A stretch of DNA of 64,000 nt from a virus (IMGVR_UViG_2880378312_000006); one strand, 5' to 3'; shown: positions 2,286 to 37,255, numbered from the stretch's first letter. Notes: generated from the letters alone by a model not told the origin. Numbers and translations: made by a program.

Positions 2286-3611
2286 TTAGACTCTTGTTTC
2301 TTGGATTATATCAAAGATATCAACATGATTTGATGGATTATGATGTGGTAAGCCATTGCTTTCGATATCGATTACCACATCCTCTGGATTTGGATGCCGC
2401 TGTCCAACAGGGATACCTTCTTCCATTGCGCGTATATCAGCACCTGTGGCATGTTCAATATCTGCTTTATTGGGGAAAATAGCTCCTTCTCTTGCGTGCC
2501 ACCATATACGAGGATAGTCAGTGAATCTAGCTACTTCAAACTCGGCCTTGTTTAAATCGGCAGCCCCCAGTGTCGCACCAGCCCACCATAAAATAGTGTC
2601 TGGCTTTAATCCAGGGGTATTATACTGTATGGCATGCCCTGCTGCTTGCCCAACCATTGCACCGATATGAGGACTTAACATTGGATCTGTACTAGCAAAT
2701 CTGGATACTGCAAATCCCCCTAAAGCACCAAGCGCATTTGCGGCAGCATTGGTAAGAACGGCATATTTAGTATTAGGGTTATCTAAATCCCACTTGAAAT
2801 GTGCGCCAAACTCCAGCCCTAGAGTTGCCTGTAATGGAGATGCACCATATTTAAAATCTGCTTCTCCCGGTCTGATAACCCACTCCTCCGTGTAATTTGC
2901 TTTCGGCCCATCAGGAGTAAGTGGTGTTTCTCCAACAAGCTTCCATCCATTTTCAGTTTTGACTATAGGAAGTTCTACACCATGATTACGAACCACTTGA
3001 GCTGTTAATCCAAACCATGGTATTGGGTCTTTTGGCTCGGTGGTTACCGTCGAAGTAGTGGCTGATGTTCCAGTCGATGCAATAGTCGACACTGCAGTGG
3101 TTGATATATTACTGTTGCTTAATGCATTTTTTAACGGGCCAGGAAGGTCTTTAAAATTAAAACCTATTTCATCATGCAGAGGGAATATCTGTAAAAAATA
3201 ATTACCTGATGTAGGATGAATATCTGGTTTTACAATGTTTAGCTGGACACCATATTTACCAGAGATGCCTGAAACGGAACTAGGTATCTCTAATGCCATT
3301 TGGGTAACATTGAATAAACCAAACATATCCAATGTTTTTTTTCCTATGGATCCTTCTTCAAGGTGAGGAGCTATATATTCGTCTAGCCCTGAGAGCAGAC
3401 CTTTATCTTTTATCAAGCTCAGTAGAGCTGTTGTTTCACCGCATTCCGGTGCATGTTGCTGTATATCATCTGGAATATTAACAACAAATCCAGCTTGGCA
3501 TCCTAGAGGTAATTCGGATTGCGGTATTTGTGTAGAGGGTATTTGTTCTGTTTGATGATGTTGATTGTTTTGTGAGGTGATTCCAGATTGTATGGTCGGT
3601 TGAATGTTCAT
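2286..3611 (-). CDS. nleA: T3SS effector NleA (EspI), 441 aa
   Basis: 441-aa ORF starting MNIQPTIQSGITSQ and ending in the PDZ-binding motif ETRV; matches NleA from recollection; AT-rich upstream region. Confidence 0.85.
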   Translation of the reverse strand: MNIQPTIQSGITSQNNQHHQTEQIPSTQIPQSELPLGCQAGFVVNIPDDIQQHAPECGETTALLSLIKDKGLLSGLDEYIAPHLEEGSIGKKTLDMFGLFNVTQMALEIPSSVSGISGKYGVQLNIVKPDIHPTSGNYFLQIFPLHDEIGFNFKDLPGPLKNALSNSNISTTAVSTIASTGTSATTSTVTTEPKDPIPWFGLTAQVVRNHGVELPIVKTENGWKLVGETPLTPDGPKANYTEEWVIRPGEADFKYGASPLQATLGLEFGAHFKWDLDNPNTKYAVLTNAAANALGALGGFAVSRFASTDPMLSPHIGAMVGQAAGHAIQYNTPGLKPDTILWWAGATLGAADLNKAEFEVARFTDYPRIWWHAREGAIFPNKADIEHATGADIRAMEEGIPVGQRHPNPEDVVIDIESNGLPHHNPSNHVDIFDIIQETRV

Positions 3612-6275: not shown

Positions 6276-7814
6276 TTATTCAGCTGGCAGTGCTATGCGC
6301 CACGGAAGCAGTTCGCTGACCCGGTTGACCGGCCAGTCTGCTATGACGCCAAGCACATGGCGAAGGTAGCTTTCTGGATCCACGTCATTCAGTTTGCACG
6401 TCCCGATCAGGCTGTACAGTAGCGCTCCCCGCTCACCACCATGATCAGAGCCGAAGAACAGGAAGTTTTTACGACCCAGACTGACCGCCCGCAGGGCATT
6501 TTCAGCGATGTTGTTGTCGATTTCCACCCAGCCATCGTTCGCATAGTACGTCAGTGCCGGCCACTGGTTAAGTGCGTACGCGAACGCCTTCGCCAACTCT
6601 GAGTGTCGCGACAGGGTCTTCATCTTTTCACGCAACCAGCTTTCCAGGGATTTCAACAACGGTTTCGTTTTTCGCTGACGTTCAGCAAGCCGCTGCTCTG
6701 CCGGCATTCCCCTTATATCCGCCTCTATGGCGTACAACTGACCGATCTGCTCCAGGGCTTCTTCCGTCAGTGCTGACGGGATGCGGACGTGCACATCGTG
6801 GATCTTTCGGCGGGCATGAGCCCAGCAGGCAGCTTCCGTTATCCCACCATTGCGATACAGCTCGTTGAACCCGGCGTACGCATCCGCTTGCAGCACACCG
6901 CTGAAGCAGGCAAGATGAGTCTGCGGATGGATGCCTTTTCTGTCCGGGCTGTAAGCGAACCACACTGCAGGTGCCAACGCTGACCCTGCATTGCGGTCAT
7001 CACGAACATACGCCCACAACCGCCCGGTCTTCGTCTTCTTATTACCCGGCAGCAGTACCTGGACCGGGGTATCATCGGCATGGAGTTTGCCGTCAGTCAT
7101 GACATAGCCATGAAGCGCCTCTTCCAGCGGAGACAGCAGCCGGCAGCATGCATCCACCCAGCCCGACAGCAGTGAACGCCTCAGCTCCACACCTTGCCGG
7201 CCGTATATTTCTGACTGGCGATACAGCGGGGTGTGCTCTGCATACTTCGAGGTCAGCACGCGGGCCAGCAGCCCCGGTCCGGCGATACCCCGCTCGATGG
7301 GCCGCGAAGGTGCAGGTGCCTGCACGATGGCATCGCACTGAGTACAGGCATGTTTTTCCCGTACCGTCCGGATAACCCGGAAGGCGCTACGCATCAACTC
7401 CAGCTGTTCGGCGGTATCCTCGCCCAGATAGCTCAGTGAACCGCCGCAGTTCGGGCAGCACGGCGCCGCAGGCAACAGTCGCTTTTCGTCACGGGGTAGT
7501 GATTCAGGGAACGGCTTACGGGTGCGGGTCTGACGCAACGGACGCTGTACTGCCGGGTCATACACCCTACCAGTCAGCGTATCGCTCTCTTTCTGAAGCC
7601 GGTTCAGATCGGCTTCCATTTGTGCGATACGGCGGGAGACTTTTTCGGAACGACTGCCGAAGTTCATCCGGCGGAGTTTATCCAGCTGCGCCTGCAGATG
7701 GTCTATTTCGCGCTCCCGGTTGCTCAGCTTTTCCTGCAGGGCGTGGATCAGCGCTTCCTGTTCGGCCAGGCGCTGTTTCAGCAGGAAGATGTCGTCAGAA
7801 GAGATGTCGTTCAT
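6276..7814 (-). CDS. tnpC: IS66-family transposase (TnpC), 512 aa
   Basis: Full-length ORF with coiled-coil N-terminus and zinc-finger-like CPNCG motif, inside the IS. Confidence 0.85.
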
Positions 7815-9916: not shown

Positions 9917-10564
9917 TCAAATTCTAGTGCATATATTTTGTGTGGCTAATATGCAAAAATATTGTTCTATTAGATTAAAATGGCATTCATCTTTGCTGAC
10001 AATCATTTCCGGAACAAAGGGTTCACGGCTGAGAGGGTGTGGAGCGTTGCGTCGGATAAGTTCAGTGAGTGCATTGTGGTCATATAATGAACATATTTCT
10101 GAGTTTTTTGCATTTCTGACAAAAACACCAGTTTCAGGAATGCATAATGTTATCGGGCAATTCAGGTGTTGTTCATGACAGGAAAAGTCTTGATGACTAA
10201 CAGTAAATGCATGAGAGTTAATTTTGTTTTGTATTGCACTACTGACGTTTTGGCGCGTACATGGGGTTGCACGGCTCTGTTCCATATATAAACGGAATGC
10301 CTGCAAAAAAGTATGGCCTCTGTTAAGCTGTATCTCCAGATTTTCTGCGAGAAGGCGATGCCCTCTTGCACTAAGGCGATCCAACAGTCCGCCGGAAACC
10401 GGTTCCACGCTAAAACTGTCCATAAATGAAATATGATGAAGTCTCATAGTGCGGCCTCTCACAACAAGCTGTTCACTCTGACTAACTCTTCCGACATGAC
10501 GTAAAGCCTCCAGTTCACTTTCAGACAATACTCTTTCACTCGAAAAGTTTAATATGACAGGCAT
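9917..10564 (-). CDS. nleG: NleG-family T3SS effector (U-box E3 ligase family), 215 aa
   Basis: Conserved C-terminal block CPITLCIPETGVFVRN...HPLSREPF shared with the other NleG paralogues in the window. Confidence 0.75.
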   Translation of the reverse strand: MPVILNFSSERVLSESELEALRHVGRVSQSEQLVVRGRTMRLHHISFMDSFSVEPVSGGLLDRLSARGHRLLAENLEIQLNRGHTFLQAFRLYMEQSRATPCTRQNVSSAIQNKINSHAFTVSHQDFSCHEQHLNCPITLCIPETGVFVRNAKNSEICSLYDHNALTELIRRNAPHPLSREPFVPEMIVSKDECHFNLIEQYFCILATQNICTRI

Positions 10565-10747
10565 ATTTTCTCCCTCTTTAGTCTATGTTATTGAACCATA
10601 TTGGTGACAGGAGTCAAGATACTAAATATGTGATAGGATTCAAACAAAAAATTAAATTTTGAACGAATGCTATTTACACATGTATTTTTTTAATTAAAAT
10701 GATTGTATACAATTTTTGTAAGCAAATTTTAATGAAAAGGATTTGTT

Positions 10748-31029: not shown

Positions 31030-31105
31030 GGCCCTTTAGCTCAGTGGTGAGAGCGAGCGACTCATAATCGCCAGGTCGCTGGTTCAAATCCAGCAAGGGC
31101 CACCA
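31030..31105 (+). tRNA. ileZ: tRNA with CAU anticodon, ileX/ileZ-like (tRNA-Ile lysidine type, or Met), 76 nt
   Basis: Cloverleaf folded by hand: 7-bp acceptor stem ggccctt/aagggcc, anticodon loop cuCAUaa, T-loop ggttcaaatcc, 3' CCA; near-identical to E. coli ileX from recollection. Confidence 0.85.
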
Positions 31106-31205
31106 TCACAAACCGCCATTAGCTTATCAGGAAGAGCAGACGACACCATAACAGGGTTGTTGGTGCGGGGCCGGGTCCCCGATGGCGGTCCATTATCGGT
31201 ATTCT

Positions 31206-31282
31206 GCGTTGTTAGCTCAGCCGGACAGAGCAATTGCCTTCTAAGCAATCGGTCAGTGGTTCGACTCCACTACAACGCGCCA
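31206..31282 (+). tRNA. argO: tRNA-Arg (anticodon UCU), 77 nt
   Basis: 7-bp acceptor stem gcgttgt/acaacgc, anticodon stem attgc/gcaat with loop cuUCUaa, T-arm agtgg-ttcgact-ccact, CCA end. Confidence 0.85.
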
Positions 31283-31451
31283 CACTTATTTTCCAGGCTC
31301 GCTTCGGCGGGCCTTTTTTGTATCTGCGCCACGCCCGGCGCATACCAACCACAGAGCCTTTCGGGGGTGAGCTTACGGAGTGGTCAGTGTGACTTTCTCT
31401 GTGGGCAGATCGCTCCCGGGCGTTGGCTCACCCACCCAAAGGAACGTCACG

Positions 31452-31883
31452 ATGTTTGGAATCTTCAAAAAGAAAACCCGCAGAGCGGCAACGGAAATTA
31501 AAAAGTTTGAAAAACGCGATCTGGCACAGGTGGTGATTAACGCCGCATACCTGGTGGCCTGTGCAGATGGTGAATGTGAGGCATCCGAGAAAGCGAAGAT
31601 CGAACAGGTACTGCGTAATCAGCCTGCGCTGTCCGCGTTTACGTCAGAAATTAATGCGATTAGCGCAACCATTATCGGTCAGCTGGATACGAACTTTAAA
31701 ACTGGTCGTCGTGCGGCGTTACGTGAGATTGAGGATGTGAAACACGATACGCGTGAAGCGGAAGATGTGCTGGATGTGGCGGTGGCCATTGCGGAGGCAG
31801 ACGGCGAAATTGAGCCGGAAGAGCGCAAGGTGCTGGAAGAGATTGCCGGTGTTCTGGGTCTTCGTCTGGAGAATCACCTGTGA
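31452..31883 (+). CDS. TerB-family (tellurite-resistance TerB-like) protein, 143 aa, in the position stx occupies in Stx phages
   Basis: Architecture parallels TerB: MFGIFKKK start, VACADGECEASEKAKI and VAIAEADGEIEPEERKVLEEIAGVLGL repeats of the ADG...E motif. Confidence 0.6.
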   Translation: MFGIFKKKTRRAATEIKKFEKRDLAQVVINAAYLVACADGECEASEKAKIEQVLRNQPALSAFTSEINAISATIIGQLDTNFKTGRRAALREIEDVKHDTREAEDVLDVAVAIAEADGEIEPEERKVLEEIAGVLGLRLENHL

Positions 31884-32047
31884 CGGTAAAACTGCGCCTG
31901 GCTGTGGCTGCACTCCTGCTGTTTCTGGTGGTGATGGTGGATTTCACCAGCAGAATCATGTCGGTGCTGGCGGATGGGGTGCTGGTCTGCGGCATTGTGG
32001 TATTGCTGTGGCCGGTGATAAAAAGAAACAGCCTGCATAATGCTTGA
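31880..32047 (+). CDS. Possible small two-TM membrane peptide (55 aa) coupled to the TerB-like gene
   Basis: GTG overlapping the upstream stop (cTGTGA); product VTVKLRLAVAALLLFLVVMVDF...VLVCGIVVLLWPVIKR; below the ORF-track size cutoff. Confidence 0.3.
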   Translation: MTVKLRLAVAALLLFLVVMVDFTSRIMSVLADGVLVCGIVVLLWPVIKRNSLHNA

Positions 32048-32360
32048 TTTTTTTGTTTGCTGTTTATTAAAAACACTTCTGCATGGTGAATCCCCCTGTG
32101 CGGAGGGGCGATCAGCAACCAGGTATATGGGATAATCGCGGATTCAGGTGCTGATACTGAATTCACCGGGAGGCACCCGGCACCATGCTTTGCCACAAAA
32201 GTGTTGTTTCTGTTTTTCTCAAACTATCATCGTTATCCCTTTATTTCCGGCTGCGCATGGCGCGGCTTTTTTTTACGACCAGCCACTGGCAGATGGTCAT
32301 CCTGTGATTTGATTCCGGTTCCGGCTTTTTAACTCTGTTCCTGTACACGGGAGAAATTCG

Positions 32361-34211
32361 ATGTCGATTAAACATTATGATGTTGTCAGGGCGGCGTCGC
32401 CGTCAGACCTTGCGGAAAAGCTGACACACAAACTGAAAGAGGGCTGGCAGCCGTTTGGTAGTCCGGTGGCCATAACCCCTTATACCCTGATGCAGGCGAT
32501 TACAGCAGAAGGTGATGTGGTGGTCAGTGGTGCAACTGAGCCGGATTGGTACTACGTCATCGTACTGGCCGGGCAGTCCAATGCCATGGCTTACGGTGAA
32601 GGGCTTCCGCTGCCGGATTCATACGATGCTCCGGATCCGCGCATTAAACAGCTGGCGCGCCGCAGTACAGTGACGCCGGGTGGGGCTGCCTGCAGATATA
32701 ACGATATTATTCCGGCCGACCACTGCCTGCATGATGTGCAGGATATGAGTACGCTGAATCATCCGAAGGCAGACCTGAGCAAAGGGCAGTACGGCTGTGT
32801 CGGCCAGGGGTTACATATTGCCAAAAAACTGCTCCCGTATATCCCGAATAACGCGGGGATCCTGCTGGTACCATGCTGTCGTGGTGGTTCGGCATTTACC
32901 CAGGGCGCGGAGGGGATATTCAGCGAGTCCACGGGGGCCAGCCAGGATTCGGCGCGCTGGGGTGTGGGTAAACCGTTATATCAGGACCTGATTGCGCGCA
33001 CCAAAGCTGCATTACAGAAGAACCCGAAAAATGTGTTGCTGGCGGTGTGCTGGATGCAGGGAGAGTTTGACATGAGCGCCGCCACCCACGCACAGCAACC
33101 TGCGCTGTTTACAGCCATGCTGACACAGTTTCGTGCTGACCTCTCCGTGTTTAACGCGCAGTGCCATGGTGGCAGTGCTGCAGATGTGCCGTGGATTTGT
33201 GGTGACACGACGTATTACTGGAAAAATACATACGCTACCCAGTACGACACCGTGTACGGCGGGTATAAAAACAGGGAGAGTGAGGGCGTTTATTTTGTGC
33301 CCTTCATGACAGACGGTAACGGCGTCAATACCGCCACTAACGCGCCGGCAGAAGATCCGGATATTCCGGCATCAGGATATTACGGTGCGGCATCGAGAAC
33401 GAATGGAAACCAGGTATCATCAAACCGCCCGACACATTTCAGTTCATGGGCGCGCAGGAGCATTATTCCGGATCGTCTGGCAACCGCTATTCTGAACGCA
33501 GCCGGGCGCACCTCAGCCTTCATCAGTGGTAAGGCACCGGAAATCAAACCCTCGCCCGGCGGCAACACGCCATCGGGTCCGTCTGCAGATACGTCCGTTC
33601 GCACAATCTCCCTGCTGCCGGCAGCCGGAGAGGCTGCTGCGCAGGGCTGGAGCATTAAGGATGGCGGAATTCAGTTGTCAGATGGTGTATTTAAGATCAC
33701 CAGGCAGAGCAATAAAACCTGGTCCCTGACGCATCCGGTGGATGACGCAATTACCCTGCTGACACAGGGCGGCAGACTGACCTGTAAGTTCCGCCTGTCA
33801 GGCGCACTGACCAACAATCAGTTCGGGCTGGGGATTTATCTGTATACGGACGCTCCCGTTCCTGATGGTGTGGCGATGACGGGTACCGGTAATCCGTTCC
33901 TGATGTCGTACTTCACTCAGACCACTGACGGCAGAGTGAATCTGATGCATCACAGGAAAGCCGGAAACACGAAGCTGGGGGAGTTCGGCGATTACGGTAA
34001 CGACTGGCAGACGCTGGAGCTGGTGTTCACCGCCGGCAGTGCCACGGTTACTCCGAAACTGAATGGAGTGGCTGGCCCGGCATTCCAGGTTATAAAAGAC
34101 AGTCTGACACTGGGACTGAATGCGCTGACGCTGACGGATGTTACAAAAAATGCAGCGTATGGCGTTGAGATAGAAAGTCTGATGCTGGAGATAAATGCAC
34201 CGGCAGCATAA
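32361..34211 (+). CDS. nanS-p: Prophage sialate O-acetylesterase NanS-p-like protein, 616 aa
   Basis: N-terminal DUF1737-like region MSIKHYDVVRAASPSDLAEKL and an SGNH/SASA esterase motif (LAGQSNAMAYGEG); position between the tRNA/stx locus and the holin as in Stx phages. Confidence 0.75.
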   Translation: MSIKHYDVVRAASPSDLAEKLTHKLKEGWQPFGSPVAITPYTLMQAITAEGDVVVSGATEPDWYYVIVLAGQSNAMAYGEGLPLPDSYDAPDPRIKQLARRSTVTPGGAACRYNDIIPADHCLHDVQDMSTLNHPKADLSKGQYGCVGQGLHIAKKLLPYIPNNAGILLVPCCRGGSAFTQGAEGIFSESTGASQDSARWGVGKPLYQDLIARTKAALQKNPKNVLLAVCWMQGEFDMSAATHAQQPALFTAMLTQFRADLSVFNAQCHGGSAADVPWICGDTTYYWKNTYATQYDTVYGGYKNRESEGVYFVPFMTDGNGVNTATNAPAEDPDIPASGYYGAASRTNGNQVSSNRPTHFSSWARRSIIPDRLATAILNAAGRTSAFISGKAPEIKPSPGGNTPSGPSADTSVRTISLLPAAGEAAAQGWSIKDGGIQLSDGVFKITRQSNKTWSLTHPVDDAITLLTQGGRLTCKFRLSGALTNNQFGLGIYLYTDAPVPDGVAMTGTGNPFLMSYFTQTTDGRVNLMHHRKAGNTKLGEFGDYGNDWQTLELVFTAGSATVTPKLNGVAGPAFQVIKDSLTLGLNALTLTDVTKNAAYGVEIESLMLEINAPAA

Positions 34212-34402: not shown

Positions 34403-34578
34403 TCAGAAGGATAGTTGGATTTCACATGATACTTATGCCTGGCGGTATATTTTCTGACAGACAGTGACGGGTGTTGTCAAGATATTGTGTCATTTATAAC
34501 CTGAATCAGGGGGTGGCCGGAATGTTATCTGGCATTTTTAGCAGAGCCTGAATGCCATAATCACGGCTCCCGGCGTTG

Positions 34579-34609
34579 GCCGTCAGTGGGTGACACTGGC
34601 GGCTTTTTT
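34579..34609 (+). terminator. Strong intrinsic terminator about 50 nt upstream of the holin gene
   Basis: gccgtcagtg...cactggcggc hairpin followed by tttttt. Confidence 0.6.
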
Positions 34610-34659
34610 GTTTTTCTTTACTTTCATTTTCTGTCGGCGGTGACGGAGACATACATCAG

Positions 34660-34866
34660 ATGGAAAAAATCACAACAGGTGTGTCATACACCACGTCAGC
34701 GGTGGGGACGGGATACTGGTTACTGCAGCTGCTGGACAAAGTCTCTCCGTCCCAGTGGGTGGCGATAGGCGTGCTGGGGAGTCTGCTGTTTGGGCTGCTG
34801 ACATATCTGACGAACCTGTATTTCAAGATTAAAGAAGACCGGCGTAAGGCGGCGCGGGGAGAGTAA
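34660..34866 (+). CDS. S: Holin, phage 21 S-type pinholin, 68 aa
   Basis: [25 protein letters not shown]...[15 protein letters not shown] closely matches S21. Confidence 0.9.
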
Positions 34867-34867
34867 A

Positions 34868-35215
34868 GTGATGAAGAAAAAATACGAACTGGTTGTTAAA
34901 GGGATAAATAATTACCCGGATAAGATTACTGTTACTGTGGCACCGGAAATTGGTGGGTATCCGTCACTGTTGTTGCCAGATGTGGCGATTAGTCTTGACC
35001 GTACTGAAGGTGCCACGCTGGAGTTTTACGAAGCTGAGGCGAAAAAGCAGGCGAAGCAGTTTTTCATGGATGTTGCTGCCGGGTTATGTGAAGGGGATGG
35101 TCCGTTACCGGAAAAGCGTCCCGTAATTTTAGAGGCGCAGGATGTGTTGATAACCTACAGAGGAAAACTACCGGGAATAATTACGGGTTCTCTGAAGACT
35201 CCACCGCTGGCCTGA
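34868..35215 (+). CDS. Hypothetical soluble protein (115 aa) between holin and endolysin
   Basis: Start 2 nt after the holin stop; no family recognised. Confidence 0.5.
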   Translation: MMKKKYELVVKGINNYPDKITVTVAPEIGGYPSLLLPDVAISLDRTEGATLEFYEAEAKKQAKQFFMDVAAGLCEGDGPLPEKRPVILEAQDVLITYRGKLPGIITGSLKTPPLA

Positions 35216-35265
35216 AGACTTAACATATCCAGGGATTTGAAATCGATAAACCCTGATAAATATCC

Positions 35266-35799
35266 ATGAACGCAAAAATCAGATACGGCCTGTCGGCTGC
35301 CGTTCTGGCGCTGATTGGTGCAGGGGCGTCTGCGCCTGAAATCCTCGACCAGTTTCTGGATGAAAAGGAAGGTAACCACACCACAGCATACCGTGATGGT
35401 GCGGGTATCTGGACCATCTGCCGTGGAGCCACCCGGGGGGATGGTAAGCCTGTTATTCCTGGCATGAAGCTGTCGAAGGAAAAATGCGACCGGGTTAACG
35501 CCATTGAGCGTGATAAGGCGCTGGCATGGGTGGAGAAAAACATCAGAGTGCCGCTGACCGAACCCCAGAAAGCGGGGATCGCGTCATTCTGTCCGTACAA
35601 CATTGGCCCCGGTAAGTGTTTCCCGTCGACGTTTTACAGACGGATTAATGCAGGAGATCGAAAAGGTGCCTGCGAAGCGATTCGCTGGTGGATTAAGGAC
35701 GGTGGCAGGGACTGCCGTATTCGCTCAAATAACTGTTACGGTCAGGTATCCCGTCGTGACCAGGAGAGCGCGCTGGCGTGCTGGGGAATCGACAGATAA
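35266..35799 (+). CDS. R: SAR endolysin (lysozyme, phage 21 R-type), 177 aa
   Basis: N-terminal signal-anchor-release segment (YGLSAAVLALIGAGASAPEIL) followed by a lysozyme-type domain. Confidence 0.85.
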   Translation: MNAKIRYGLSAAVLALIGAGASAPEILDQFLDEKEGNHTTAYRDGAGIWTICRGATRGDGKPVIPGMKLSKEKCDRVNAIERDKALAWVEKNIRVPLTEPQKAGIASFCPYNIGPGKCFPSTFYRRINAGDRKGACEAIRWWIKDGGRDCRIRSNNCYGQVSRRDQESALACWGIDR

Positions 35800-36069: not shown

Positions 36070-36639
36070 ATGAATATGATGGCCGTGCCGTTTCACGGCA
36101 ACTCTCTTTATGTAGTTAACCATAATGGCGAACCATACGTTCCCATGAAACCTGTCGTTGCGGGGATGGGGCTGGCCTGGCAATCACAGTTGGCTAAGTT
36201 AAGACAGCGTTTTGCGTCAACTATAACGGAAATCGTTATGGTTGCTGAGGATGGGAAACAACGCAATATGGTGTCCATGCCACTTCGAAAACTTGCCGGC
36301 TGGCTACAAACCATTAATCCCAACAAAGTAAAACCCGAAATCCGCGATAAGGTCATCCGGTATCAGGAAGAGTGCGACGATGTTCTTTACGAGTACTGGA
36401 CGAAGGGTTTTGTCGTTAATCCCCGTAAAATGAGCGTGATGGAAGAACTCAACCAGGCTTGTGCTGACATGAAACGGGATAAAAACATTGCCAGTGTGTT
36501 TGCTACCGGGCTGAATGAGTGGAAACAGGTTAAAGCCGCGCATGTATCAAAAATCCGTACGCTGGTAAATGAAGCGAATATGCTGATTGATTTTGTCCTG
36601 GCTGATACAGGCAAAGGGAAAATAACAAAGGCGGATTGA
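36070..36639 (+). CDS. ant: Phage antirepressor-like protein (AntA/Bro-N-type N-terminal domain), 189 aa
   Basis: N-terminal AVPFHGNSLYVVNHNGEPYVPMKPVVAGMGLAW pattern typical of phage antirepressors; located between R and Rz. Confidence 0.6.
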   Translation: MNMMAVPFHGNSLYVVNHNGEPYVPMKPVVAGMGLAWQSQLAKLRQRFASTITEIVMVAEDGKQRNMVSMPLRKLAGWLQTINPNKVKPEIRDKVIRYQEECDDVLYEYWTKGFVVNPRKMSVMEELNQACADMKRDKNIASVFATGLNEWKQVKAAHVSKIRTLVNEANMLIDFVLADTGKGKITKAD

Positions 36640-36781
36640 TGGGGTGGCTAATGATATCAGATAAACTCATAACGCTGGTGAAGAGCCTCTGTGTACTTGT
36701 CGGCATTTCATTTTCACTAATGCTGGTTGCTCTTTTTCTTTCCATGGCCTGGATGGCGTTGACTTCGGCAGGGCTGGTGGG

Positions 36782-37255
36782 GTGAGCATAAACCGAATGC
36801 TTTCCGCGTTTACCGTTATTCTGCTGGTGGTCTGTGGTGCGCTTAGTCTGGGGCTGAATCATTACCGCGATAACGCCATAACCTACAAAGAGCAGCGCGA
36901 TAAAAAAGTCAGTGAGCTGGAGCTGGCAAATGCAACCATTACTGATATGCAGCAGCGCCAGCGTGATGTTGCTGCACTTGATGCCAGATACTCGAGGGAA
37001 TTAGCTGATGCGAGAGCTGAAAATGAAACTCTGCGTGCTGATGTTGCCGCTGGTCGTAAGCGCCTGCGCATCAACGCCAACTGTCCAGGCTCCTTGCGTA
37101 AAGCCCCCATCACCTCCGGCGTGGATAATGCAACCGGTCCCCGACTGGCAGAAGCCGCTGAACGGGATTATTTCATCCTCAGAGAACGGCTGATGGCAAT
37201 GCAGAAGCAACTGGAAGGAGCACAGGAATATATCCGTACCCAGTGTATACCGTGA
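36782..37255 (+). CDS. Rz: Spanin inner-membrane subunit Rz, 157 aa
   Basis: High similarity to lambda Rz (NHYRDNAITYK...DVAAGRKRL...ERDYFILRERL). Confidence 0.9.
   Translation: MSINRMLSAFTVILLVVCGALSLGLNHYRDNAITYKEQRDKKVSELELANATITDMQQRQRDVAALDARYSRELADARAENETLRADVAAGRKRLRINANCPGSLRKAPITSGVDNATGPRLAEAAERDYFILRERLMAMQKQLEGAQEYIRTQCIP
37008..37193 (+). CDS. Rz1: Spanin outer-membrane lipoprotein Rz1, embedded in Rz in the +1 frame, 61 aa
   Basis: Lipobox LVVSAC; proline-rich; matches lambda Rz1 (CVKPP.PPAWIMQP.PDWQ.PLNGIIS). Confidence 0.85.
   Translation: MRELKMKLCVLMLPLVVSACASTPTVQAPCVKPPSPPAWIMQPVPDWQKPLNGIISSSENG

What the first reader, a model, noticed from the sequence alone, without database searches (positions are those of the whole stretch)
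34868..35215. Unknown 115-aa gene inserted between pinholin and SAR endolysin
In phage 21-type lysis cassettes S and R are adjacent. Here a soluble 115-aa protein of no recognisable family starts 2 nt after the holin stop and ends 50 nt before the endolysin, so it is co-expressed with lysis. It could be a lysis regulator or late-expressed cargo.
Basis: partly seen in the sequence, partly recalled or inferred. Interest (0 to 1): 0.5.

Follow-up and report, generated by a model that had tools for sequence, protein, structure and literature searches.

The report
YdfR (DUF1327) gene in lysis cassette
The small gene between the holin and the endolysin is real, but it belongs to the already catalogued YdfR/DUF1327 family, which sits at this exact spot in prophages of more than half of all E. 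coli genomes and still has no established function.

Summary
The ORF is real, but its likelier start is the ATG at 34871 (114 aa), not the GTG at 34868.

The claim of "no recognisable family" is wrong. The protein matches Pfam DUF1327 over its full length (E=5.5e-46), and NCBI annotates the identical protein as "YdfR family protein". E. coli K-12 ydfR occupies the same slot in the Qin prophage.

Related DNA occurs in 3155 of 5426 complete E. coli genomes and 101 phage records. In all 13 loci whose start I read, the gene begins 4 nt after the holin stop. It is optional: phage 933W joins S directly to R. It is also restricted to Escherichia and Shigella.

The family is modular. A conserved N-domain of about 74 aa (three strands plus a helix) carries C-terminal parts that vary, giving proteins of 72 to 296 aa.

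Fold and profile searches found no informative relative. The only functional data concern K-12 YdfR, which binds the catalytic half of RNase E and co-purifies with RNA (2026 paper).

Verdict: an already known family member of unknown function, so low interest. My best guess is a dispensable cytoplasmic late protein acting on host RNA turnover. A role in lysis timing is not excluded.

The parts
34578..34604 (+). Terminator-like GC-rich hairpin followed by a T-run, about 55 nt upstream of the holin start. Late transcription presumably reads through it by antitermination (inference).
   Evidence: 11-pair stem with 7 GC pairs, tail TTTTTGTTTT.
34660..34866 (+). Phage-21-type class II holin (pinholin type), 68 aa. 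It lacks the upstream Met that gives the 71-aa form in 933W and Qin.
   Evidence: PF04971, E=7e-33. ACATACATCAGATG here against GTATGTACCAGATG in 933W; hydrophobic segment.
34856..34863 (+). Shine-Dalgarno-like GGGGAGAG inside the last holin codons, 9 nt (from GGAG) before the ydfR ATG. In 933W the same element precedes the endolysin gene R.
   Evidence: Direct reading of the sequence.
34871..35215 (+). YdfR-family (DUF1327) gene, 114 aa plus stop. The GTG at 34868 is the ORF-finder start. The ATG at 34871 is the annotated and likelier start.
   Evidence: PF07041, E=5.5e-46, profile positions 1-92 of 93; phrog_406, E=4e-64; WP_000731259.1 'YdfR family protein'.
34871..35092 (+). N-domain, residues 1-74. 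This is the conserved DUF1327 core: three beta-strands and one long helix, with a conserved D-R-x-E-G-x-x-L-E-F-Y-E motif (E46, G47, Y53 and E54 invariant across ten diverse members).
   Evidence: AlphaFold2 block-mean pLDDT 68-90 for this domain, with the same topology in two independent runs; invariant and near-invariant columns; 46% identity to K-12 YdfR over residues 1-74.
35093..35212 (+). C-module, residues 75-114 (…EKRPVILEAQDVLITYRGKLPGIITGSLKTPPLA). Its sequence is strongly conserved within the subfamily, but it is predicted with low confidence. It is absent from K-12 YdfR and occurs fused to a different N-terminus in P0152. Longer relatives continue beyond it.
   Evidence: invariant columns 80-111; pLDDT below 50; P0152; 296-aa forms.
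35216..35265 (+). 50-nt spacer ending in the conserved endolysin leader CCTGATAAATATCC. No significant RNA structure was found.
   Evidence: the leader is shared by L005, L007, L008 and L009; z-score -0.05.
35266..35799 (+). SAR-type endolysin, 177 aa, T4-lysozyme family. It has an N-terminal Gly/Ala-rich weakly hydrophobic segment and an E35-x8-D44-x5-T50 motif.
   Evidence: PF00959, E=1.5e-24; KD19 1.67 at residues 9-27. PMC8136144 reports predicted SAR endolysins in Stx phages.
36070..36639 (+). Antirepressor-like gene (P22_AR_N plus ORF11CD3 domains). This is a second non-lysis gene interrupting the cassette, between R and Rz.
   Evidence: the same position in 933W is annotated 'ant'.
36639..36785 (+). 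48-aa hydrophobic small ORF immediately upstream of Rz (phrog_4906, unknown function).
   Evidence: (WP_000539795.1).
36797..37255 (+). Rz i-spanin. The ORF finder starts it at 36782 and NCBI's annotation at 36797.
   Evidence: (PF03245, E=1.3e-46).
37008..37193 (+). Rz1-like o-spanin ORF embedded in Rz in another reading frame, with a lipoprotein-type signal (…LVVSAC…).
   Evidence: translation; analogous Rz1 annotation in 933W.

Best explanation
The ORF is a short (114-aa) member of the YdfR/DUF1327 family. This family is found only in lambdoid prophages of Escherichia and Shigella, and its home is the slot between the phage-21-type holin and the SAR endolysin.

**Shown here**
- Family membership and strict synteny.
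- Optional presence.
- A soluble, mildly acidic protein.
- A conserved N-domain (three strands plus a helix) joined to a conserved but structurally unresolved C-module.
- No promoter-like site of its own upstream.
- The start codon sits behind the Shine-Dalgarno element that serves the endolysin in phages lacking ydfR.

**Inferred**
- It is made late, from the Q-antiterminated late transcript, together with S and R.
- It is an accessory cytoplasmic factor, not a core lysis component.

**Most likely mode of action (extrapolated from the K-12 homologue, not tested here)**
- The N-domain binds the catalytic N-terminal half of host RNase E, and/or RNA.
- This would modulate RNA turnover during the late phase, for example the stability or processing of the long late/lysis transcript.

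Family assignment is about 0.99 certain. The RNase E/RNA mechanism is about 0.3. The confidence given below is for the whole statement.
For: **Family**
- PF07041, 155 bits against a cut-off of 25, covering profile positions 1-92 of 93.
- phrog_406.
- NCBI names the identical protein 'YdfR family protein'.
- 46% identity to K-12 YdfR over residues 1-74, E=1e-22.

**Synteny**
- In all 13 loci whose start I read, the gene begins 4 nt after the holin stop.
- The 8 loci from species-representative genomes align to the Qin region, with the match between holin-like and rrrQ-like sequence.

**Frequency**
- 3155 of 5426 complete E. coli genomes and 6711 places.
- 101 phage records.

**Dispensable for lysis**
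- 933W has S followed directly by R.

**Selection**
- dN/dS of the N-domain is about 0.3 at dS>1, against 0.06-0.14 for S and R.

**Cytoplasmic and soluble**
- No hydrophobic segment long enough for a membrane span.

**Functional lead from K-12 YdfR (PMC13232886)**
- It binds Rne(1-597) in bacterial two-hybrid assays, and residues 1-72 are sufficient.
- It co-purifies with FLAG-tagged Rne(1-598).
- The Strep-tagged protein brings down DNase-resistant nucleic acid.
- Overexpression is not toxic.

**Weak structural echo**

**Precedent**
- Phages are known to target RNase E: T7 gp0.7, T4 Srd, phiKZ Dip (PMC4980113).
Against: - The RNase E data come from a 46%-identical homologue that lacks the C-module.
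- Those data rest on two-hybrid assays and on pull-downs with overexpressed protein.
- K-12 YdfR overexpression changed few transcripts. The authors could not exclude that a contaminant retained the RNA.
- The lysine pattern that resembles a dsRNA-binding helix is not conserved across the family.
- An RNase E role does not explain why the gene is tied so strictly to the S-R junction.
- The window's version may be a truncated remnant of 176- to 296-aa forms.
Confidence: 0.4

Rival explanations
1. YdfR is a lysis-timing regulator that acts directly on the pinholin or the SAR endolysin. It could be a cytoplasmic factor that binds the holin's cytoplasmic ends or the endolysin's N-terminus before export. 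The conserved but disordered C-module would be the contact motif.
For: - The gene is found exclusively next to a phage-21-type holin and a SAR lysozyme, in every locus examined.
- Its start is fixed 4 nt after the holin stop, behind the Shine-Dalgarno element that drives R in 933W.
- The C-module is highly conserved yet predicted disordered, as expected for a partner-binding motif.
- In this window the holin lacks the 71-aa (antiholin) start, so another timing device would be useful.
Against: - 933W-type phages lack the gene altogether.
- Loci with the 71-aa holin form also carry ydfR, so ydfR does not compensate for a missing antiholin start.
- K-12 YdfR lacks the C-module.
- The protein has no membrane segment or signal sequence.
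- K-12 YdfR overexpression gave no growth phenotype.
- No similarity to any known lysis regulator appeared in Pfam or PHROGs.
Confidence: 0.25
2. YdfR is a moron-type cargo gene. Its benefit would fall on the lysogen or on something other than lysis (for example stress or cold response, or envelope physiology), and it merely uses the S-R junction as a permissive insertion site.
For: - The S-R slot is plastic. It also holds opposite-strand ORFs (L005, L009) and an unrelated 185-aa gene (L006).
- The K-12 Qin cluster is reported to be up-regulated under cold stress. ydfR was also a hit in an envelope-integrity screen.
Against: - No + strand promoter-like site lies between 34318 and the gene, and a terminator-like hairpin lies upstream of the holin.
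- ydfR reads were almost absent in uninduced K-12.
- The envelope-screen hit could be a polar effect of the deletion cassette on the endolysin gene downstream. This is my inference and is untested.
- No match to known defence-system proteins in PADLOC.
Confidence: 0.15
3. The 114-aa gene is a truncated, functionally decaying remnant of a longer (176- to 296-aa) protein. It is still translated, but it has little or no activity of its own.
For: - Family members come in a length series of 72, 103/104, 114/116, 162, 176, 183 and 287/296 aa. The window protein stops exactly where longer forms continue (…TPP|TALRSEKDD…).
- Selection is weaker than on S and R.
- NCBI flags some copies as incomplete.
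- Frameshifted holin-YdfR fusions exist (P0010, P0068).
Against: - The 114/116-aa form is the commonest. Single 90%-identity clusters hold hundreds to more than 1000 member sequences.
- The window's allele is found at 80% or more coverage in 1254 genomes, and it occurs in inducible Stx phages.
- dN/dS is well below 1 in both the N-domain and the C-module.
Confidence: 0.15

Closest known systems
E. coli K-12 YdfR (P76160, Qin prophage; Pfam DUF1327 / PF07041)
   Same: - Same family. The N-domain is 46% identical over residues 1-74.
- Same genomic slot: the gene starts 4 nt after the class II holin stop, and the lysozyme gene lies immediately downstream.
   Different: - K-12 YdfR is 103 aa with an unrelated C-terminal tail (…EKLSEKVESYLQHQYSFKIENPANKHERPHHKYL), and it overlaps rrrQ.
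- The window protein instead carries the conserved C-module EKRPVILEAQDVLITYRGKLPGIITGSLKTPP, followed by a 50-nt spacer.
- RNase E binding has been shown only for the K-12 protein.
YYZ_gp44 of Stx phage YYZ-2008, and the unannotated ORF between S and R of phage H-19B
   Same: - The YYZ-2008 protein is 100% identical, and the H-19B ORF is 98% identical.
- The holin-YdfR-lysozyme block is the same in both.
   Different: - Those phages carry stx genes upstream.
- This window's prophage has TerB-family and DUF3927-family genes at that position and no stx.
Phage 933W / phage 21-type lysis cassette (S, R, Rz/Rz1)
   Same: - The holin (dN/dS 0.11), the endolysin (96% nucleotide identity), the ant-like gene and Rz/Rz1 are all shared.
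   Different: - 933W has S followed directly by R.
- The window has 400 nt (ydfR plus spacer) where 933W has 5 nt.
- The first codons of R differ (MNAKI… against MSRKL…).
- The holin here lacks the 71-aa start.
Phage modulators of RNase E: T4 Srd, phiKZ Dip, T7 gp0.7
   Same: - These are possible functional analogues.
- Like K-12 YdfR, Srd binds the catalytic N-terminal half of RNase E (PMC4980113; PMC13232886).
   Different: - No sequence or fold relationship was detected.
- Those proteins come from virulent phages.
- The effect of YdfR on RNase E activity is unknown.
Long YdfR forms (PHROG 1085, 296 aa; PHROG 2091, 183 aa)
   Same: - The first ~112 residues (N-domain plus C-module) are collinear with the window protein.
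   Different: - Long forms add a helical hairpin and a further C-terminal domain of about 150 aa, of unknown function.
- The window protein stops before these.

Membership tests
YdfR / DUF1327 (Pfam PF07041) | Score above Pfam's gathering threshold, with near full-length coverage of the profile | tested here: met
   155.2 bits against a cut-off of 25, E=5.5e-46, profile positions 1-92 of 93.
YdfR / DUF1327 (Pfam PF07041) | Detectable homology to the name-giving protein, E. coli K-12 YdfR | tested here: met
   BLASTP 46% identity over 74 aa, E=1e-22. Only the N-domain aligns.
YdfR / DUF1327 (Pfam PF07041) | Genomic position between a class II (phage-21-type) holin and a lysozyme in a lambdoid prophage | tested here: met
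   The same arrangement is seen in all comparison loci that carry the gene.
YdfR / DUF1327 (Pfam PF07041) | Binding to the N-terminal catalytic half of RNase E and co-purification of RNA (reported for K-12 YdfR only) | not testable with these tools
   PMC13232886. This needs two-hybrid or pull-down assays with this allele.
PHROG 406 | Full-length match to the profile | tested here: met
   E=3.8e-64, profile positions 1-113 of 114. The category is 'unknown function'.
Phage-21-type pinholin / SAR-endolysin lysis cassette (the context) | Holin of the P21 S family | tested here: met
   PF04971, E=7.3e-33.
Phage-21-type pinholin / SAR-endolysin lysis cassette (the context) | Dual-start motif giving a longer antiholin (71 aa) and a shorter holin (68 aa) | tested here: not met
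   the upstream ATG present in 933W, Qin and L005 reads ATA here and in YYZ-2008. Only the 68-aa form can be made.
Phage-21-type pinholin / SAR-endolysin lysis cassette (the context) | Endolysin with an N-terminal weakly hydrophobic Gly/Ala-rich signal-arrest-release segment and an E-x8-D/C-x5-T catalytic motif | tested here: met
   residues 9-27 LSAAVLALIGAGASAPEIL, KD19 1.67; E35, D44 and T50 read directly from the sequence. Export and release behaviour were not tested.
Phage-21-type pinholin / SAR-endolysin lysis cassette (the context) | Rz/Rz1 spanin pair, with Rz1 embedded in Rz | tested here: met
   PF03245, E=1.3e-46; embedded 61-aa ORF with a lipoprotein-type signal.
Double-stranded-RNA-binding domain (dsRBD) | Alpha-beta-beta-beta-alpha fold, significant profile or structure match, and a conserved KKxAK-type helix motif | tested here: not met
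   - No Pfam hit other than DUF1327 at E<=0.1.
- The N-terminal helix is absent.
- The basic residues are not conserved, apart from position 62.
Known anti-phage defence proteins (PADLOC) | Match to a defence-system profile | tested here: not met
   only a chance-level hit, E=0.021 at 12.9 bits.
Known holin antagonists and endolysin regulators (for example T4 RI, P1 LydB, Mu releasin) | Sequence homology, or a membrane or periplasmic location | tested here: inconclusive
   - Pfam and PHROGs return only families of unknown function.
- The protein has no membrane segment or signal sequence.
- No direct pairwise comparison with those proteins was run.

The most novel reading that the evidence does not exclude
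YdfR is a lambdoid-prophage effector with two parts. The N-domain docks on the catalytic half of host RNase E (or on RNA), and the conserved but disordered C-module contacts a second partner. Together they would couple RNA turnover of the late transcript to the timing of pinholin/SAR-endolysin lysis. In Stx phages this would also affect the timing of toxin release. Such a role might help explain why Stx1a and Stx2c phages carry the gene while 933W-like Stx2a phages do not.
Probability: 0.2. Interest if true: 0.55.

Novelty: already known. Interest (0 to 1): 0.18.

Why it matters
As a discovery it matters little. The gene, its family and its position are already in Pfam, PHROGs and RefSeq annotation, and in the K-12 genome map.

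What remains of interest is that a gene present in about 58% of complete E. coli genomes, often in several copies, still has no assigned function. It sits in the middle of the lysis cassette of many Shiga-toxin phages. The first biochemical lead, RNase E binding, dates only from 2026. A simple deletion and lysis-timing experiment in an inducible Stx1a or Stx2c phage would show whether it affects lysis or toxin release.

Tried and rejected
1. **Structure-based function assignment.**
   - Two AlphaFold2 runs gave the same N-domain, but the C-module stayed unresolved.
   - Foldseek against the PDB and BFVD gave nothing at E<=0.001.
   - The AlphaFold-database library was not available.
   - The recurring dsRBD hits were considered and rejected as evidence of membership (see the membership test).
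2. **Sequence and profile searches against solved structures.** Nothing was found.
3. **Defence-system profiles (PADLOC) and NCBIfam.** Nothing was found.
4. **Exhaustive HMMER search of 1.84 billion representative proteins.** Only 54 clusters matched, all of them fragments or mosaics of the same family, so there are no distant annotated relatives.
5. **RNA structure in the ydfR-R spacer that might gate endolysin translation.** It is no better than shuffled sequence.
6. **Own promoter for ydfR.** None was found.
7. **Does ydfR compensate for the missing antiholin start of this holin?** Rejected, because loci with the 71-aa holin also carry ydfR.
8. **Apparent hits in Veillonella and Bacillota genomes.** One contig (L022) is 99% identical to E. 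coli Qin DNA, and the other (L024) is 79-88% identical to the Qin region. I read both as binning contamination, so the family stays restricted to Escherichia and Shigella.
9. **Literature.**
   - A search for "DUF1327" found one paper, which I did not read.
   - Most "ydfR" hits are an unrelated melanoma cell line.
   - Only PMC13232886 contains functional data.

Full report

The ORF finder lists 34868..35215 (+) as a 115-aa ORF starting at GTG. One codon further on is an ATG at 34871. A GGAG at 34858-34861 lies 9 nt upstream of that ATG. NCBI's annotation of a genome with an identical holin-to-lysozyme block (E. coli M7638, NZ_CP040313.1) starts the gene at this ATG. That gives a 114-aa protein, WP_000731259.1.

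- Upstream is a 68-aa holin of the phage-21 S family (PF04971, E=7e-33).
- Downstream is a 177-aa lysozyme (PF00959). It has an N-terminal Gly/Ala-rich, weakly hydrophobic segment and an E35-x8-D44-x5-T50 motif, the hallmarks of a SAR endolysin.
- Further downstream come an antirepressor-like gene, a 48-aa hydrophobic ORF, and Rz with an embedded Rz1.

The product has no membrane-spanning segment and a pI of 5.5. So the coordinates, the gaps and the "soluble" description all hold.

**2. What family is it?**

The statement "no recognisable family" does not hold.
- The protein matches Pfam DUF1327 (PF07041) with 155 bits against a cut-off of 25, across profile positions 1-92 of 93.
- It matches PHROG 406 end to end.
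- RefSeq names it "YdfR family protein".
- The name-giver is E. coli K-12 ydfR in the cryptic Qin prophage. In a K-12-like genome, ydfR lies between the holin (annotated essD) and rrrQ, and starts 4 nt after the holin stop.
- The window protein and K-12 YdfR share 46% identity over residues 1-74 (E=1e-22). After that they diverge completely.

**3. How common is it, and how fixed is its position?**

- The 1251-bp holin-ydfR-lysozyme block is 100% identical in E. coli M7638 and 98.9% identical in Stx phage YYZ-2008.
- 2460 of 5426 complete E. coli genomes hold at least 80% of the block.
- The ydfR gene alone finds related DNA in 3155 genomes, at 6711 places and up to 8 per genome.
- A translated search of phage records finds it in 101 records, all Escherichia phages.
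- In all 13 loci whose start I read, the gene starts 4 nt after the holin stop.
- Eight loci from a scan of one genome per bacterial species align to the Qin region, with the match between holin-like and rrrQ-like sequence.

That species scan returned only Escherichia coli, E. albertii, E. ruysiae and Shigella, plus two metagenome bins. One bin's contig is 99% identical to E. coli Qin DNA. The other is 79-88% identical to the Qin region. I read both as contamination.

An exhaustive HMMER search of 1.84 billion representative proteins found only 54 clusters. The family is therefore very frequent but taxonomically narrow.

**4. Is it optional?**

Yes.
- Phage 933W has S followed by R after 4 nt. 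Alignment places the difference at window 34875-35274 (400 nt) against 5 nt in 933W.
- Both arrangements use the same GGGGAGAG element inside the holin's last codons.
- Among phage records, 369 match the block but only about 101 encode a DUF1327 protein.
- Stx1a-converting phages: 41 with the gene, of 47 that match the block. Stx2c-converting phages: 15 of 17. Stx2a-converting phages: 2 of 124.

The slot is generally plastic.
- Some loci add an opposite-strand ORF between ydfR and R (L005, L009).
- One locus (L006) has a 185-aa gene that lacks the DUF1327 domain.

**5. Anatomy of the family**

Members come in lengths of 72, 103/104, 114/116, 162, 176, 183 and 287/296 aa. Three parts can be distinguished.
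- **N-domain (about 74 aa).** It occurs in two main allelic types. It carries a conserved D-R-x-E-G-x-x-L-E-F-Y-E motif, with E46, G47, Y53 and E54 invariant across ten diverse members.
- **C-module (residues 78-112 here).** It is nearly invariant within its subfamily. It is missing from K-12 YdfR, and it is found fused to a different N-terminus in P0152.
- **Optional extensions.** The L006 gene corresponds to the C-terminal 180 residues of the 296-aa form (PHROG 1085). All these profiles are labelled "unknown function".

The window protein stops exactly where the long forms continue.

Selection on ydfR is purifying but weaker than on its neighbours. dN/dS is about 0.3 for the N-domain at dS>1, against 0.06-0.14 for the holin and lysozyme.

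**6. Structure**

Two AlphaFold2 runs, one of the 114-aa protein and one of a 183-aa relative, agree.
- Residues 5-73 form three beta-strands followed by a long helix (block-mean pLDDT 68-90).
- Residues 74 to about 120 have pLDDT below 50 in both runs.
- The extension of the 183-aa form is a helical hairpin.

Structure searches gave nothing significant.
- Foldseek found no hit at E<=0.001 against the PDB or viral models.
- One library was unavailable.

**7. What is known experimentally**

The only functional work I found is PMC13232886 (RNA Biology, 2026). It reports the following for K-12 YdfR:
- It was recovered in a bacterial two-hybrid screen with RNase G as bait.
- It binds RNase E(1-597), and residues 1-72 are sufficient.
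- It co-purifies with Rne(1-598).
- It brings down DNase-resistant nucleic acid.
- Overexpression was not toxic and changed few transcripts.

The same paper notes that ydfR was a hit in an envelope-integrity screen. I confirmed that it appears in that screen's supplementary tables. Because the endolysin gene lies immediately downstream, a polar effect of the deletion cassette could explain the hit. This is my inference.

A genomic survey of Stx phages describes the pinholin/SAR-endolysin cassette. In the passages I searched, it does not mention this gene.

**8. Most likely mechanism**

Shown:
- The gene is a YdfR-family member in its canonical slot.
- It has no promoter-like site of its own.
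- It lies behind the ribosome-binding element that otherwise serves R.
- It is dispensable for lysis in related phages.

Inferred:
- It is expressed late, together with S and R.
- It acts in the cytoplasm.

Extrapolated:
- Its N-domain targets the catalytic half of RNase E, and/or RNA. This would be functionally analogous to T4 Srd, which also binds that half of RNase E.

I give the RNase E/RNA mechanism about 0.3. The rivals are a direct lysis-timing regulator (0.25), a lysogen-benefit cargo gene (0.15) and a decaying truncated remnant (0.15). None can be excluded by computation.

**9. Verdict**

Novelty: already known (an annotated family of unknown function). Interest is low. What remains of value is that a simple deletion experiment could assign a role to a very widespread lysis-cassette gene of Shiga-toxin phages.

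Noticed in passing
window 34620-34662: The holin has only the 68-aa start. The upstream Met codon that gives the 71-aa (antiholin) form in 933W, Qin and L005 reads ATA here and in phage YYZ-2008 (ACATACATCAGATG against GTATGTACCAGATG). This cassette therefore appears to lack the dual-start timing device.
   Followed up: partly
window 34578-34604: A strong terminator-like hairpin (11 pairs, 7 of them GC, followed by a T-run) lies about 55 nt upstream of the holin start, inside the late operon. The upstream sequence here and in YYZ-2008 differs from that of 933W.
   Followed up: no
window 36070-36785: The lysis cassette is interrupted a second time between R and Rz. The interruption consists of an antirepressor-like gene (P22_AR_N plus ORF11CD3) and a 48-aa hydrophobic ORF (phrog_4906, unknown function) that ends just before Rz.
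   Followed up: partly
window 31030-34211: The region upstream of the lysis genes has the layout of an Stx phage: tRNA-Ile and tRNA-Arg, then a 616-aa SASA-family esterase with DUF1737 and DUF6645 domains. Where stx would sit, it carries TerB-family and DUF3927-family genes instead.
   Followed up: no
L005 2025-2297 (- strand); L009 1744-2040 (- strand); L006 1714-2271: The holin-endolysin slot is a variable hot spot. Some prophages add an opposite-strand ORF after ydfR (90 aa in L005, 98 aa in L009; PHROGs 2411 and 25324, unknown function). One prophage (L006) carries only the C-terminal 185-aa part of the long YdfR form, without the DUF1327 domain.
   Followed up: partly
L015, L016, L017 801-1688: A 296-aa intact reading frame (DUF1327 domain, C-module, helical region and a further domain; PHROG 1085) is annotated by NCBI as an 'incomplete' YdfR pseudogene covering only its first 336 nt. 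This looks like an annotation artefact for the long form.
   Followed up: no
window ~16960, compared with NZ_CP040313.1: The window is collinear with the E. coli M7638 chromosome at more than 99% identity from position 1314 to the right end. The one difference is that the IS1203 copy inserted in the recE-like gene of M7638 is absent here.
   Followed up: partly
window ~2286-3611, ~9917-11338 and 60169-62169: By alignment to the annotated M7638 genome, type III effector genes lie to the left of the prophage in the window (nleA, nleG, espM1). Three further DUF1076 (NleG-like) genes lie at the prophage's right end. The prophage abuts a truncated ydfJ.
   Followed up: no
L022 (Veillonella parvula MAG) and L024 (Bacillota MAG): Contigs assigned to Veillonella and Bacillota metagenome bins carry the Qin-type holin-ydfR-lysozyme region. 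The Veillonella contig is 99% identical to E. coli, and the Bacillota contig is 79-88% identical. This most likely reflects binning contamination.
   Followed up: yes
P0010, P0068 (database proteins): Some contigs encode holin-YdfR fusion proteins (PF04971 plus PF07041). These are apparently produced by a frameshift in the last holin codons, and one such cluster has 13 member sequences.
   Followed up: no
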